DNA from: Vermamoeba vermiformis
Lineage: Eukaryota
Length of the DNA: 32,418 nucleotides
Direction: 5' to 3'
NCBI GenBank assembly: GCA_045837725.1
Contig: JBEWZL010000180.1
Location: forward strand, 1-32,418
Part shown: positions 1 through 6,553 of the stretch, piece by piece
How positions within the stretch are numbered: the first letter of the stretch is position 1
Layout of the letters: every line of letters starts with the position of its first letter
Position numbers and translations under genes: made by a program
Notes under the pieces: model-generated
Seen by the model: only the letters and a program-made list of their open reading frames with translations
The model's database searches: none
What the model was told of the DNA's origin: nothing

Positions 1-247
1 CAACCCTAACCCTAACCTTAACCCTAACCCTAACCCTAACCCTAACCCTAACCCTAACCCTAACCCTAACCCTAACCCTAACCCTAACCCTAACCCTAAC
101 CCTAACCCTAACCCTAACCCTAACCCTAACCCTAACCCTAACCCTAACCCTAACCCTAACCCTAACCCTAACCCTAACCCTAACCCTAACCCTAACCCTA
201 ACCCTAACCCTAACCCTAACCCTAACCCTAACCCTAACCCTAACCCT
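1..247. repeat. Telomeric repeat array (CCCTAA)n / (TTAGGG)n, left chromosome end
   Basis: About 41 tandem hexamers from base 1, C-rich strand 5'-terminal as expected for a chromosome end. One CCTTAA variant at 16-21. Abrupt switch to unique sequence at 248. Confidence 0.98.
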
Positions 248-570
248 GTTTCTGCCGACAATACCATCAGCATCCAAACCACGAGATCTTTGGAAGTTCT
301 AAATAACGCCCGTTAGCCAAAGAATAAATTTGAATATTCAATCCCAAAAAGAGATCTTGCGAAATAAAATCAAATCAGATTCTAATGCTTACTCTGACAG
401 CGCCGTCAGTTCCAGGACCAAATTGACCGTCAACAGAGATACCAGCTCCAAACTTGGTGCGGAGGAGATATTGCAAGGCACGAACTGCGTCGCCATTAGC
501 CCCTGTTCTAAGCACAGGACCAAGAGCGGCGATGGTATTAGGGCTGAGCTGGTTAGAAGCTTTGGCCAAT
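248..570 (-). pseudogene. Truncated fragment encoding a PG_binding_1-type peptidoglycan-binding domain, cut by the telomere
   Basis: Minus exon ~570-393 (VLRTGANGDAVRALQYLLRTKFGAGISVDGQFGPGTDGAVR), phase-0 intron 392-299 (GTAAGC...CTAAC...TTTAG), then exon 298-248 (NFQRSRGLDADGIVGRN). Matches the PGBD pattern LxxGxxGxxVxxLQxxL...DGxFGxxTxxAVxxFQxxxGLxxDGIVG. No credible start codon and no stop. Confidence 0.85.
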
Positions 571-593
571 TTTCTTATCGGATCTTTCTTTAG

Positions 594-781
594 GTAACTT
601 GGCCGCAAGACCTGGTTACAGTAACCATCAAAACGGTATTGCTCTCGATCTCAACGTCGGTGGTGGTGTCTACGCTTGGTTGTCCGCTAATGCTCACAGA
701 TTCGGCTTTGTTCGCACCGTGCCCTCTGAGAACTGGCATTGGGAGTACCGTCCTGGATCCCCTCGTGCCTCTTTCACTTAA
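594..781 (+). pseudogene. Orphan terminal exon of a VanY-like / M15B Zn peptidase (peptidoglycan DD-carboxypeptidase/endopeptidase)
   Basis: 3' splice site TTTCTTTAG ends at 593. The exon reads NLAARPGYSNHQNGIALDL...WLSANAHRFGFVRTVPSENWHWEY, with the SxHxxGxAxD and ExxH motifs of M15B. TAA at 779-781 and AATAAA at 821-826. No upstream exons in the + orientation. Confidence 0.85.
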
Positions 782-982
782 GTCGATGATGGAGCTACTT
801 GTCTCTGATCTATATGTACGAATAAATGATGTTTTGTAGTTTATTCAAACCTGACTTTCTCCCGTTGTCTCCTGACTGCCGAATTGTAGATATTGATGGG
901 AGAAATGTGTATGGTGTATGGCCATTAGACCAGAGATTTTTTTCGTGTGAATAGTGATTTTAGTTTTGAATAACCAATAGAT

Positions 983-3923
983 TTACATTGCGCCGTAAGC
1001 AGGACCACCACCGCCTTCAGGGGTAGTGTAATCAATCAACTGACTGGGTTCTTTAATGTCGCACGTCTTGCAATGCAAACAGTTCTGTGCATTGATCTGC
1101 AAACGAGGCTTGTCACCGGTCTCAACCCACTCGTACACGCCAGCTGGGCAGTATCGTGTTTCAGGTCGCTAGAATATTCCATTAATAACGCTCACAGCTA
1201 AATAATAACAGTGTAGTACGTACATCATAAACGTTCAAATTCTTCTGAGTAAATTTCTCCAGTTCTCGGACCTTCAAGTGAGCAGGTTGATCTTCATTGT
1301 GATTGGTTCCTGTGCACTATATTAATACCATATCTTTCTAATGTCACCACAGTGCAGTTACGTACCACTGCGTGAAAGATTGGTCAACAGATCGAAGCTG
1401 ATCTTGCCGTCAGGTTTGGGATATTCAATGGGCTTGCATTCCTTAGCAGGCTTCAATCGCTCGTAGTCTTCGTGTTTGTGATGCAAGGTCCACGGTTCTC
1501 GACCGCGCATGATCATGTCTGCGCCAGAGTAGATCATGCCCGGAATAGTTCCGAGTTGGAATGCAGGGCGAATGTTACGCACTGTCAACATATCGTGGTT
1601 AGGCGTGTTGTAATATAATAGTAAGGTGTATTAATATACCTTTGTAAAGGTCGTCCCACAGCCATGATCGCTTCAACATTTCAGGATATTTGCTCAGATA
1701 CAATGGCTTGGACTTGTCAGCCTCACCAGCCTCCTTCAACGCGTTAAAAATGGCCTCAGCAGCGACCATGCCTAAATTAGGAAGGTAAGATCGATCGTAC
1801 TCGACACCGCGAATAATTTCATACCTGATTTCATGGCGTTGTGCGAGCCTTTGATCTTGGGCACGTTCAAAAATCCAGCGGCACAACCGACGAGTGCAGC
1901 ACCAGGGGCAATGAGCTTGGGAATCGATTGGTAGCCTCCTTCGTTAATTGCGCGAGCTCCGTACGAGATGCACTTGCCACCTTCGAGCAAGTTTGAAATC
2001 AACGGATGGTGCTTCCATTGCTAATAAAAACAAAAAAGCTTATCAGTAAAGCAGATTACTTTAATAAGCTAAATACACCTATTATTTAATTTTGTGCGAG
2101 ATATTTAGCACAGTTAATCGGATTAAGAACGGACACTTGGTATTTTTTCAAAAATATTATCGTGCAAAAATTGACCTGGAATGACTTACTTGGAATTCCT
2201 TATAAGGACTCAAATACGGGTTTTCATAGTCCAAACCAACGACGTAACCGATCGACAACAAATTGTTCTCCCAGTGATACAAGAACGCACCACCCCATGT
2301 CTTCATGTCGACTGGCCAGCCCAATGTGTGCATCACAGTACCTTGGTTGTGCTTCTCTGGATTAATTTCCCACACCTAGAATGGAAATCGGTCATTATAT
2401 TTCCTTTTATGGTATGCTGGAAAATATGAATTGAAATCAGATCTTTTCGACAACTTTTATCTGTATACCTAATAGGATCTATATGATAGTATGTATATGT
2501 AACTTACTTCTTTCAAACCGATGCCATAGGTTTGTGGATCTGCTCCTTCGCGCAAATTGAATTTTTGGATCAACTTCTTGGACAACGAGCCTATTAACAA
2601 GTCAACACTAATCTATATTAATACTGATATTAATGTACCTCTAGTGCCTTCAGCGAGCAATGTGATTGGTGCGTGAAGTTCTAGACCGCGTTGGAAGTTC
2701 TCGGTCGGTTTGCCGTCCTTGCCAATGCCCATGTCACCCGTAGCAACACCTTTAATCGAGCCATCTTCGTTGTACACGAACTACACGAGCAATAATAAAG
2801 TTAATAAAAATAAAATTGATAAAATAACTGCGTAGGGAATTGCGCACCTCAGAACCAGGGAAACCGGAATAAATTTCAACACCCATTTCAGTAGCTTGTT
2901 CTGCTAACCATCGGCAAAGATTGCCCAGACTATGCGATAGATTGATTAGCAATATTTCCTTTTATGGTAATTTCTATTGACGTACCTGATGATGTAATTG
3001 CCGTGGTTGGACATGTGAGGCGGTGTTGGGCAACGAAGAGCCATCTTCTTGGTCAAGAAATAGACCTTGTCATTTGTGACTGGTACGTTTAATGGAGCCT
3101 ATGATATATTAATATTAATCGGACTAATCACCGCTAAGCGAAACTCGAATTATTTGGATCCGTTACAAAAACGAATTTAAATTTCAGAATAATATTTCGA
3201 GCTTATATTCTATGTACTTACGCCACGGTCCTTCCAATCAGGGAATAATTCGTTCAAAGCGCGAGGTTCGAGTACTGCACCGGACAAGATGTGGTTTCCG
3301 ACTTCAGCACCCTTCTCCAACAAACAGACGCGCAAGTCCTTGCCGTGGTCTTTGCCTAATTGTTTCAATCGAATTGCGGCTGAAAGGCCTGCTGGACCAC
3401 CGCCTAATAAAAAGATTATCTGTTAGTGGATCTGGAAATCAAACGTTTTTCTGGAGAAATTTACGGCAGATCCATGGTGTTGTTAAGTAAATGGATCCGA
3501 TAAAGTATTAAGTTGAGGCATATTAAGGATAATATTTAAATAATAGTATTAGTTGCGAATGTAATAGACGCGGGAAACGGACATTGCAAAAAGAAAAATA
3601 ATTGCAAAAAGATTTTCAATTATTTAAAGGCCTTACACTACAAGCATACAAAAATATAACATGACTCTTATTAAATTAAATTTTAGAGAATTTTTGAAGT
3701 CCAATATTTTTGTTAACTCACCAACAATGACTACATCCGCATTATCAGTGTCTCTAGGCGCATTTAATATTGCCTTTTCTTCTTCAGTGAGGTTGCTGGT
3801 CTGTGAAGCTTGACGACGTGCAGTAAGCGAGAAAGATCTGCTTGACGCGCCTGTCCACAGAATAGGGCCGAATCTGGATCTCTTCGAGACTAATCTCGTA
3901 GCGCACTTAATTGATTGTAACAT
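983..3923 (-). CDS. ETFDH: Electron transfer flavoprotein-ubiquinone oxidoreductase, mitochondrial (multi-exon)
   Basis: ATG 3923 with Arg/Ser-rich transit peptide; [17 protein letters not shown] motif across intron 1; [27 protein letters not shown]; 4Fe-4S ligands RYCPAGVYE and [10 protein letters not shown]-terminus [15 protein letters not shown] 983-985. Confidence 0.96.
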
Positions 3924-4825: not shown

Positions 4826-6553
4826 TTATTGGTGATGAGCGCACTTAGGTACACGATCGTGTATGTACTTTCGAATTTTTGAAAAGGAATTAGCAAGCCT
4901 ACAAATGTTCTTTTCGTCCCACGGACATCCGTTTTCGTGCGCGTAATTCAAGCACTCAAACTGTCCCATAAGTGTTGCTACAGCACACACTGCTTTGTCC
5001 CATTCAGCTCCGTTCTCGTGTGCATATTTAAGGCACTCAATATTTCCACGTTTAGCAGCTTTGTAACAACTATTCTGCCAAGGACATCCTCGTTCATGCA
5101 CGTATTTTAAGCAGTCCACATTACCGCTTTTTACAGCCAATGGGCACAAGTGTTTAGCATTCCAAGGACAACCATTATCATACGCGTACTTAAGGCAATC
5201 AATGTGCCCGTACTTAACTGCTGAAAAAGTCGTGCCAGTATCCCACGGAGCTCCATTTTCATGAGCATATTTCAGTACTTCTAAGTGACCACCTATTGCT
5301 GCAAATGTGCACGCTTCACCCCAGCCACAACCATTTTCATGTGCGTACTTCAAACACGTGAGCTGGTTCTTTTTTGCAGCGTAAGTGCACACATCTGAAG
5401 ACCATGCACAACCATTGGTATGCGCGTAGATCAAGCAGTCCAAGTGGCCATTTTCTGCTGCCATTGTGCACGTAGAATTGTTCCATTCGCAGCCGCGTTC
5501 ATGCACGTACTTGAGCAATTCCAAATTGCCTTGAGCAGCAAGTCCAGCGGTCGTGTCGGCATCCCATGGACAGCCATTCTGTTGTGCATAAAACAAACAC
5601 TCGTAATGTCCATTTTTCGCCGCTTCAGCGCACGTAAGAGCGTCCCAAGTACAGCCGTTTTCGTGAGCGTACTTGAGACACTCAAGTTGCCCTTGAGAAG
5701 CAGCTTTTGCGCACGTTTGAGCTGTCCATTGAGATCCAGGCTGTTCATGAATGTATTTCAAGCACAAGAGGTGCCCACCTTCGGCAGCGTACGAACAACA
5801 AAAAGCTGAACTCCATTCCGCTCCGTGTTCGTGTGCGTACTTTAAACAGTCCAAGTTACCTCTTTTTGTTGCTGCGCCACATACATCTCTGATCTTTTCC
5901 CACTTGCAGTCATTCTCGTGTGCGTATTTGAGGCAGGAAAGGTGCCCGTTCTCGGCTGCGTATAGTAATGTAAACGGATCCCATTTTGCCCCATTTTCAC
6001 GCGCAAATTTCAAGCATTCTAACTGCCCATTCATGCTTGCTATGCCAGTTACATATGAATTAACGGGTTGTTTTTTGTCGTGTGAGTAAGTGAGGCAGTT
6101 CATAAATCCGTTCCATGCAAAGTACGCGTGAAAGTTGTAGCGCGAGACTTTGTGTCCGACCAGTCCAAGCGACTGCTTAATTTTGTGGCAGCACGCGTGA
6201 AGCTGTTTTGAAACTGATGAAGGGAAAGCTAGTTTGACAAACTGCAGATCAAACACTTCGACGTAAGCGTTAGGAAGATCCTCAGTTTTGATAAGCTGTT
6301 GCAAAATAACGCCCCAAACGTCCGTTGGTAGTGAAATTGGATCTATCTATATTAAGCGTTATTAAAGGTCTTGGTAAAAGTTCAATTTTAGTTATTTCAA
6401 AAAAATTCAATTATTAATTTATCGCTCTACACGTGTAATTATGATATTTGTGGTTCGCTTATATTGTTAGAAAGCAATATTACAATTAAATTTCGTGTCT
6501 CTTTCCAAAATTCTTACCTGCGTCTGCATCCTATTGTCTGATACTAGTTCCAT
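4826..6553 (-). CDS. F-box-like + Cys/Trp-rich ankyrin-type repeat protein
   Basis: Short first exon 6553-6518 (GTAAG donor) joined in frame to one long exon 6346-4826. N-terminal SLPTDVWGVILQQL is F-box-like, followed by about 16 repeats of ~25 aa (CxxAAxxGxLxCLKYAHENGCxW). The start codon is tentative. Confidence 0.82.

What the first reader, a model, noticed from the sequence alone, without database searches (positions are those of the whole stretch)
1..300. Telomere repeats joined directly inside a coding exon (chromosome-healing signature)
Seen: on the minus strand a correctly spliced exon reads AAC TTC CAA...GGT ATT GTC GGC AGA AAC A then GGGTTAGGG..., so the peptidoglycan-binding domain is cut at DGIVGRN, just before the usual TW helix. 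There is no degenerate-repeat transition zone and at most ~1 nt of overlap. Established: abrupt junctions with minimal seed homology typify de novo telomerase addition at breaks, including programmed chromosome fragmentation in ciliates and nematodes. Inference: this end arose by breakage plus healing, either as a one-off or as part of a fragmentation process not yet described for this lineage.
Basis: partly seen in the sequence, partly recalled or inferred. Interest (0 to 1): 0.8.

Follow-up and report, generated by a model that had tools for sequence, protein, structure and literature searches.

The report
Telomere capping a broken, rearranged gene remnant
This chromosome end is a repair scar: telomere repeats were added straight onto a broken and partly flipped copy of a cell-wall-digesting enzyme gene, a tidy but ordinary example of chromosome healing rather than a new fragmentation process.

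Summary
Window 2-247 is 41 clean CCCTAA units. At 247/248 they abut a minus-strand exon piece ending ...DGIVGRN, cut inside a peptidoglycan-binding domain. The intron 299-392 is real: it is spliced out in RNA contigs and reads.

The cut piece is not part of a working gene. Intact relatives read signal peptide, PGBD1, PGBD2, linker, VanY/M15 peptidase on one strand. Here only two pieces remain, on opposite strands. PGBD2 (248-544, minus) lies 49 bp from the last VanY exon (593-781, plus). The 103 codons between them and the whole N-terminus are missing. A spliced transcript contig from a close relative covers both pieces colinearly, which proves the inversion.

Differences from expressed homologues fall mostly on third codon positions (33 of 41), so the remnant is young. 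Overlap with the telomere repeat is one nucleotide.

Best reading is a one-off terminal break and rearrangement capped by telomerase. This is known from Magnaporthe and Plasmodium. Nothing supports programmed fragmentation, and it could not be tested because no genome is held. Independent read-level proof of the junction is still missing.

The parts
1..247 (-). Terminal telomere array. It is (TTAGGG)41 on the minus strand, running outwards, with one variant unit TTAAGG at 16-21.
247..248 (.). Telomere/unique-sequence junction. A247 is shared between the repeat and the expected Thr codon, so the seed is 1 nt.
   Evidence: One search gives the sequence. One search shows L002 reading AAC ACT TGG at the homologous place.
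248..298 (-). Truncated exon piece, the second half of PGBD2 (NFQRSRGLDADGIVGRN). It corresponds to P0004 residues 147-163.
   Evidence: The X3 contig piece lies on 257-298 with 0 differences.
299..392 (-). Intron of 94 nt with GTAAGC...CTAAC...TAG on the minus strand. The relative L002 has an intron at the same position.
   Evidence: The joint 298->393 is seen in X3 and in 16 X21 reads. L002 intron.
393..544 (-). Exon piece covering the end of the PGBD1/PGBD2 linker and the first half of PGBD2 (..SPNTIAALGPVLRTGANGD...TDGAVR). Homology to intact genes stops at 544.
   Evidence: The X3 contig piece lies on 393-544.
545..592 (.). Joint region of the inversion, non-coding. Its right part is the 3' end of an intron on the + strand (pyrimidine tract, AG at 592-593). 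The joint is at 544|545, or inside 545-~570 if the lost gene had an intron of its own here.
   Evidence: Both X3 alignments stop at 544 and 593. L002 has a phase-1 intron at the same NNG|NLAARPG place and none at the 544 place.
593..781 (+). Last exon of the same gene in its original orientation: the VanY/M15 C-terminus (GNLAARPGYSNHQNGIALD...SENWHWEYRPGSPRASFT) with stop TAA at 779-781.
   Evidence: Pfam VanY E 8.7e-8, 32.5 bits, profile 57-131 of 132. tblastn to P0004 residues 267-328, 91.9% identity, E 1.4e-35.
782..846 (+). 3' UTR, alignable with the 3' UTR of the intact relative gene in L002. It contains AATAAA.
   Evidence: blastn aligns window 668-846 to L002 2275-2452 at 80.7%.
986..3923 (-). 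Neighbouring complete ETF-ubiquinone oxidoreductase gene, convergent with the remnant. Its 3' end lies about 740 bp from the telomere repeats.
   Evidence: tblastn of P0243 (601 aa) covers residues 1-601. Homologue list.

Best explanation
This is a genuine chromosome end produced by a one-off terminal rearrangement followed by de novo telomere addition.

The last gene on this arm encoded a secreted bacterial-type cell-wall hydrolase: signal peptide, two peptidoglycan-binding domains and a VanY/M15 peptidase. It lay on the + strand, convergent with the ETF-QO gene.

DNA breaks removed everything distal to an intron near the gene's 3' end. A 297-bp piece of the same gene (PGBD2 with its intron) ended up joined backwards, 49 bp from the last exon. 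Three routes give this result: a prior inversion, capture of a fragment by end-joining, or fusion of unequally resected sister chromatids followed by a second break. The free end of that piece, ...AGAAACA-3', was extended by telomerase from a single-A seed into TTAGGG repeats.

Both gene pieces are dead remnants. The only working feature is the telomere cap.

Shown: the anatomy, the inversion relative to intact homologues, the truncation point, the 1-nt overlap and the youth of the remnant. Inferred: telomerase as the agent, the order of events, and that it happened once.
For: (1) The array is clean, terminal and correctly oriented, with no subtelomeric or degenerate zone.

(2) Intact homologues are colinear. 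P0004 has PG_binding_1 x2 plus VanY at 217-320. The genomic relatives L001 and L002 carry the whole gene on one strand.

(3) In the window, P0004 residues 95-163 map to the minus strand (548..248) and residues 267-328 to the plus strand (593-778). Residues 1-94 and 164-266 are absent.

(4) An 836-nt spliced contig of run X3 lies on window 593-792 in one orientation and on 257-298 plus 393-544 in the other. 318 nt of the contig between these pieces are absent from the window. That matches the 103 missing codons (309 nt) plus 9 nt in the stretch the tool skipped (table 8).

(5) The remnant is young. All three pieces keep open frames and canonical splice sites. 33 of 41 listed differences from the X3 and X21 transcripts are at third codon positions (on table 3).

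(6) The locus is unique in the source data. One X1 contig of 10,484 nt lies on 257-1500 with 0 differences, runs on 36 nt toward the end, and has no part 'running on unlike'. An X2 contig spans the inversion joint (477-1500).

(7) There is precedent. In Magnaporthe, 19 of 24 de novo telomeres extended 1-4-nt seeds (passages of PMC7367193). In P. falciparum 3D7, 5 of 28 ends are healed, 4 of them inside var coding sequence (passages of PMC5550746).
Against: Junction support is not independent. X1 and X2 come from the sample that may be the source of the assembly. The tool skipped 224-256, so the contig letters across the junction were not shown. The X2 contig stops at 477 and never reaches the junction. 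No raw DNA reads were available, so heterogeneity of the end is unknown.

Synteny is unproven. L002 ends 150 nt after the gene, so it is not shown that the intact gene of relatives sits next to ETF-QO.

Telomerase was not observed, and a recombinational origin of the repeats is not formally excluded.

The RNA evidence that the remnant is silent is ambiguous. For example, 0 of 219 X21 reads at position 718 carry the window's letter. But only 2 of 466 laid reads are 99% or more alike, so X21 may be another strain.
Confidence: 0.8

Rival explanations
1. The telomere tract was acquired by recombination (break-induced replication or telomere capture from another end) rather than by telomerase priming on the broken end.
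For: It cannot be excluded from sequence alone. Both routes end in perfect repeats.
Against: Capture normally brings subtelomeric sequence of the donor end and needs homology. Here pure repeats start after a 1-nt overlap. The only other TTAGGG hexamer nearby (538-543) is in the wrong orientation and is internal.
Confidence: 0.08
2. The end is an assembly or library artefact: a chimeric join of a telomeric read, an inverted gene fragment and the ETF-QO locus.
For: Only data from the probable source sample cover the junction. The X2 contig stops at 477. The letters across 224-256 were not displayed.
Against: A de Bruijn contig rebuilt independently by Logan from run X1 follows the window for 257-1500 with 0 differences and goes 36 nt further without diverging. 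That is about as far as a 31-mer graph can enter a shared repeat. A second run (X2) spans the inversion joint 545-592. Both breakpoints fall at biologically sensible places, namely an exon and an intron 3' end.
Confidence: 0.06
3. The end is one product of a recurrent or programmed break-and-heal process in this lineage.
For: There is none specific. It rests only on an abrupt junction with a minimal seed, which programmed systems share with accidental healing (listing; passages).
Against: The break lies inside a coding exon of a remnant that carries a second, unrelated rearrangement, which looks like damage rather than a defined site. The source contig runs unbranched into the telomere. The 12 papers listed of 51 found all concern ciliates or nematodes, none fungi (listing only).
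Confidence: 0.03

Closest known systems
De novo telomere formation at terminal truncations in Magnaporthe oryzae, a TTAGGG fungus (PMC7367193; passages read)
   Same: Repeats are added directly to non-telomeric sequence after terminal loss. Seeds of 1-4 nt were seen in 19 of 24 events, and 'minimally T or A' suffices. Here the seed is one A.
   Different: There the events were watched arising in culture, mostly in rDNA or telomeric retrotransposons. Here it is a single fixed scar in a protein-coding gene, with an extra inverted fragment, in an unnamed early-diverging-fungus-like organism.
Telomere healing in Plasmodium falciparum subtelomeres (PMC5550746; passages read)
   Same: [quoted passage not shown] Everything distal is lost.
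   Different: The repeat and the organism differ. The Plasmodium cases are simple truncations of multigene-family members. Here the truncated piece is itself inverted relative to the rest of its gene.
Programmed chromosome breakage with telomere addition in ciliates and nematodes (listing only; e.g. PMC7599177, PMC10980081)
   Same: The junction is abrupt with little or no homology.
   Different: Those systems use defined sites or motifs at many loci, are developmentally timed, and distinguish germline from soma. None of these features could be shown here, and the site looks accidental.
Inverted-duplication/terminal-deletion products of breakage-fusion-bridge cycles (recalled from general knowledge, not read here)
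   Same: An inverted segment lies next to a healed telomere. Fusion of unequally resected sister chromatids followed by a break in the single-copy spacer would give exactly telomere - reversed distal piece - proximal sequence.
   Different: The defining inverted duplication of proximal sequence is absent from the window. The longest inverted pair in 240-1000 is 20 nt at 75%. This route is therefore possible but leaves no diagnostic trace.
PG_binding_1 + VanY (peptidase M15) cell-wall hydrolases of bacteria and scattered microbial eukaryotes
   Same: Both remnants are 82-92% identical to P0004 and carry the family's motifs, including the conserved C-terminal SxHxxGxAxD and ExWHW stretches (motif names recalled).
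   Different: There is no start codon and no signal peptide. PGBD1 is missing, as are the linker and the first ~56 profile positions of VanY, and the pieces lie on opposite strands. It is not a functional member.

Membership tests
De novo telomere addition (chromosome healing) scar | A terminal array of the organism's canonical repeat in outward orientation. | tested here: met
   41 units, 99% matches, at the first base of the window, with the G-strand outward.
De novo telomere addition (chromosome healing) scar | The repeats abut unique sequence directly, with no subtelomeric repeat or degenerate zone. | tested here: met
   The perfect units run to 247 and unique coding sequence starts at 248. 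The source contig is unbranched from ETF-QO into the repeat.
De novo telomere addition (chromosome healing) scar | The abutting sequence is demonstrably truncated relative to an intact version. | tested here: met
   P0004, L002 and the X3 transcript all continue past GRN with TW....
De novo telomere addition (chromosome healing) scar | A short (0-4 nt) seed shared with the repeat at the junction. | tested here: met
   The shared seed is 1 nt (A247). This is judged from the relative's codon ACT and the conserved Thr.
De novo telomere addition (chromosome healing) scar | The same locus continues distally in a progenitor or sister strain. | tested here: inconclusive
   L001 shows two more genes upstream of the intact gene and none of them is in the window. 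Linkage of that gene to ETF-QO in relatives was not shown.
De novo telomere addition (chromosome healing) scar | Single molecules span the junction. | tested here: inconclusive
   Only contigs of the probable source sample were available, and the junction letters were skipped by the tool.
Programmed chromosome fragmentation / DNA elimination | A recurrent break motif or defined sites at many ends. | not testable with these tools
   No whole genome is held. There are no earlier notes on this genome.
Programmed chromosome fragmentation / DNA elimination | Heterogeneous addition sites, or intact and broken forms in one organism. | not testable with these tools
   Contigs cannot show minor forms, and the one read-laying run is used.
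Functional PG_binding_1-VanY hydrolase gene | One colinear reading frame with a start codon, a signal peptide, complete PGBDs and a complete VanY domain. | tested here: not met
   The pieces lie on opposite strands and P0004 residues 1-94 and 164-266 are absent. PG_binding_1 is covered only over profile 1-35 of 57 and VanY only over 57-131 of 132.
Fold-back inverted duplication with terminal deletion | The inverted segment duplicates the adjacent proximal sequence. | tested here: not met
   The inverted piece (248-544) is single-copy and derives from sequence that lay distal to the joint. There is no long inverted repeat in 240-1000.

The most novel reading that the evidence does not exclude
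The exon-interrupting telomere is not an accident. It is one instance of a recurrent, perhaps regulated, break-and-heal process that reshapes chromosome ends in this early-diverging-fungus-like lineage. In that case other ends of the genome would show the same kind of gene-internal junctions and the addition sites would vary between nuclei.
Probability: 0.03. Interest if true: 0.85.

Novelty: new member of a known kind. Interest (0 to 1): 0.25.

Why it matters
As a single case it matters little. It adds a nucleotide-resolved example of chromosome healing in a poorly studied microbial eukaryote. It shows that telomerase there can start from a one-base seed.

The useful details are practical. 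Gene predictors would be tempted to call a 'PGBD protein' and a 'VanY protein' here, and both are dead halves of one gene lying head to head. A complete housekeeping gene (ETF-QO) now ends about 740 bp from the repeats, so this end has no buffer of subtelomeric DNA.

The scar also records a three-breakpoint event: an inverted 297-bp fragment plus healing. That is the kind of small complex rearrangement expected from end-joining or fusion-bridge-breakage at damaged ends. It would only become important if other ends of the same genome show the same pattern.

Tried and rejected
1. Survey of the other chromosome ends.

2. Naming the organism. The ankyrin-repeat ORF search (4471 hits at E<=1e-10, 120 listed) gave no informative names. 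The ETF-QO fragment search gave nearest named relatives at only 75-82% (Mucoromycota, chytrids, one amoebozoan). I therefore say only 'early-diverging-fungus-like'.

3. The idea that the joint joins two intron 3' ends. On the minus strand a CTAAC (556-552) and an AG (545-544) precede the exon, which looked like an intron end. The genomic relative L002 has no intron there. This is left open, and the joint is given as 544|545 or within 545-~570.

4. The idea that the TTAGGG hexamer at 538-543 is a relic of an earlier telomere. It is one of only 7 such hexamers outside the array in 32 kb. I rejected the idea because the intact X3 transcript matches the window through 544 with no listed difference in 510-544. 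The hexamer is therefore native coding sequence, and native sequence continues one base past it.

5. Microhomology or hairpin models. The 9-nt inverted pair 260-268/531-539 and the 8-nt pair 441-448/546-553 sit near the breakpoints. But 10 direct and 11 inverted families of this size in 761 nt is what chance gives.

6. Classical fold-back inverted duplication. Rejected because no proximal sequence is duplicated.

7. Expression of the remnant. The X21 reads over 257-792 all carry other letters. Since only 2 of 466 laid reads are 99% or more alike, the run may be a different strain, so this does not show silence.

Their small shares are no evidence of anything.

9. Supplementary tables of PMC7367193 (the junction list) are closed and were not seen.

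Full report
WHAT IS THERE

The window opens with 41 head-to-tail CCCTAA units (2-247; 99% matches, no indels). A scan for the 12-mer with up to one mismatch finds 39 hits, all inside 4-243, against a shuffle mean of 0.09. The single variant unit (TTAAGG, 16-21) is at the outer tip. The array is therefore clean right up to the junction and oriented as a true left chromosome end.

From 248 the minus strand reads an exon piece, NFQRSRGLDADGIVGRN (298..248). Before it, on the minus strand, comes a 94-nt GT..AG intron (392..299) and then a further exon piece...SPNTIAALGPVLRTGANGD...TDGAVR (544..393). The intron is real. A contig of run X3 skips exactly 299-392, and 16 reads of RNA run X21 carry the same joint (table 5).

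WHAT THE GENE WAS

The best homologue, P0004 (328 aa), runs signal peptide, PGBD1, PGBD2, Pro/Gly linker and VanY/M15 peptidase on one chain. Pfam gives it PG_binding_1 in two stretches (E 8.7e-31) and VanY at 217-320 (E 5.1e-18).

Two metagenome contigs, L001 and L002, carry a genomic relative with the whole gene on one strand. Two of its introns sit at the same positions as in the window: after DGAVK, and at NNG|NLAARPG in phase 1. Its 3' UTR can be aligned with window 782-846 (80.7% over 668-846). The family is bacterial in type and turns up in scattered microbial eukaryotes such as amoebae and chytrids.

The plus strand at 593-781 encodes the C-terminal 62 residues of the same protein, with its stop codon. 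The evidence is VanY E 8.7e-8 and 91.9% identity to P0004 residues 267-328 at E 1.4e-35. The PGBD2 pieces on the minus strand correspond to P0004 residues 95-163.

Two parts of one gene therefore lie head to head, 49 bp apart. Residues 164-266 (103 codons) and 1-94 are missing.

Run X3 settles the point. Its 836-nt spliced contig lies on 593-792 in one orientation and on 257-298 plus 393-544 in the other. Between those pieces it has 318 nt that the window lacks. That equals 309 nt for the 103 codons plus 9 nt in the stretch 248-256 that the tool skipped. The contig then continues into a PGBD1-like stretch (table 8). So an intact colinear mRNA exists in a close relative. It differs from the window at 0 of 42, 9 of 152 and 4 of 200 positions. 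Relative to it, the window's PGBD2 piece is inverted.

Homology to intact genes stops at 544 on one side and at 593 on the other. The 593 boundary is an intron 3' splice site: a pyrimidine tract with AG at 592-593. The 544 boundary lies in what is continuous exon in L002. The joint is therefore at 544|545, unless this lineage had an extra intron there.

AGE AND STATE

All pieces keep open frames and canonical splice signals. Of the 41 differences that one search lists between the window and the X3 or X21 transcripts, 33 are at third codon positions. Five further differences were not shown by the tool. The divergence therefore accumulated under selection, and the remnant has had little time to decay. 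The rearrangement is young on that scale.

Neither piece has a start codon. In X21 every read over the region carries the other letter at the listed sites, for example 0 of 219 reads with the window's letter at 718. However, only 2 of 466 laid reads are 99% or more alike. X21 may therefore be another strain, so this is not proof of silence.

IS THE END REAL

A 10,484-nt contig rebuilt from run X1 follows the window over 257-1500 with no difference. It runs 36 nt further toward the end, and none of it 'runs on unlike'. A contig of run X2 spans the inversion joint (477-1500) but stops at 477.

Both runs belong to the sample that may be the source of the assembly, and the tool did not display the letters over 224-256. 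This speaks against an assembler artefact. It also speaks against the fragment being an identical repeat shared by many ends, because the graph is unbranched from ETF-QO into the telomere. It is not independent read-level proof.

MECHANISM

In L002 the codons at the break read AAC ACT TGG. In the window AAC A is followed by GGGTTAGGG. One base, A247, is shared.

This is the pattern described for accidental healing. In Magnaporthe, 19 of 24 new telomeres extended 1-4-nt seeds and 'minimally T or A' suffices (PMC7367193, passages). In P. falciparum 3D7, 5 of 28 ends are healed, four of them inside coding sequence (PMC5550746, passages).

The inverted 297-bp piece needs two more breakpoints. Three routes give the same product:
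- an inversion between the PGBD1/PGBD2 boundary and the last intron, followed by a terminal break;
- capture of a small fragment backwards by end-joining;
- fusion of unequally resected sister chromatids, followed by a break in the single-copy spacer.

A classical fold-back duplication is excluded, because nothing proximal is duplicated. I cannot choose among the three.

WHAT IT IS NOT SHOWN TO BE

Nothing supports programmed fragmentation. The break is in an exon of a gene that also carries an unrelated rearrangement. There is only one end to look at, because no genome is held. The 12 papers listed of 51 found for programmed elimination with telomere addition all concern ciliates or nematodes (listing only). 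Earlier notes of this scan on other genomes describe similar telomere-on-pseudogene ends as known healing. I did not test those notes.

CONTEXT

The next gene, a complete ETF-ubiquinone oxidoreductase (986-3923, minus), ends about 740 bp from the repeats. In the relative L001, two more genes lie upstream of the intact hydrolase gene: a glycogen-phosphorylase C-terminus and a galactosyltransferase-like gene, both named from my reading of the printed sequence. Neither is in the window. If the loci are syntenic, at least those genes were lost, but the synteny is not shown. The nearest named ETF-QO relatives are Mucoromycota and chytrids at 75-82%.

VERDICT

The healing interpretation is supported as an inference. 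The 'interrupted working exon' and 'fragmentation process' readings are not supported. This is a new example of a known kind, with a neat extra inversion. Interest is low to moderate.

Noticed in passing
window 538-543 (+): A single TTAGGG hexamer sits directly at the inversion joint (544|545). It is one of only 7 TTAGGG/CCCTAA hexamers outside the telomere in 32 kb. It is native coding sequence (codons AGC CCT AAT on the minus strand), because the intact X3 transcript matches here. Whether it influenced where the break or joint fell is unknown.
   Followed up: partly
window 260-268 and 531-539; 441-448 and 546-553: Perfect 9-nt and 8-nt inverted pairs lie close to the breakpoints of the inverted piece. 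The 9-mer is DGI read backwards as NTI. Their number and size are what chance gives in 761 nt.
   Followed up: partly
window 820-846 (+) and L002 ~2425-2455: The 3' UTR of the hydrolase gene keeps a conserved inverted repeat, GAATAAA...TTTATTC, around the AATAAA signal in both the window and the relative. It may be a conserved 3'-end element.
   Followed up: no
window 477 (run X2): The X2 contig from the same sample ends at 477, where the listed differences from the X3 transcript begin (477-509). This is probably a graph break at paralogue-like sequence, but it leaves X2 silent on the telomere junction.
   Followed up: no
window 257-792 (run X21): RNA reads labelled with the same species come from a 90-95% identical, spliced, expressed homologue whose 3' UTR diverges from the window's within about ten bases after the stop codon (loose end at 783, 96 reads). 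The species or its strains therefore carry at least one working copy of this hydrolase.
   Followed up: partly
L003 814-1113 (+) and 1270-1187 (-): A metagenome contig of a more distant relative has a VanY gene followed 74 nt later by an inverted partial copy of the VanY C-terminus that runs to the end of the contig. This is another inverted arrangement in this family.
   Followed up: no
window 4829-6346 (-): A 506-codon open frame of ankyrin repeats (LKYAHENGCPWD-type units) has thousands of database relatives (4471 at E<=1e-10). It is a large expanded family close to the chromosome end.
   Followed up: no
window 986-3923 (-): A complete, spliced housekeeping gene (ETF-ubiquinone oxidoreductase) ends only about 740 bp from the telomere repeats. 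This end has essentially no subtelomeric buffer.
   Followed up: partly
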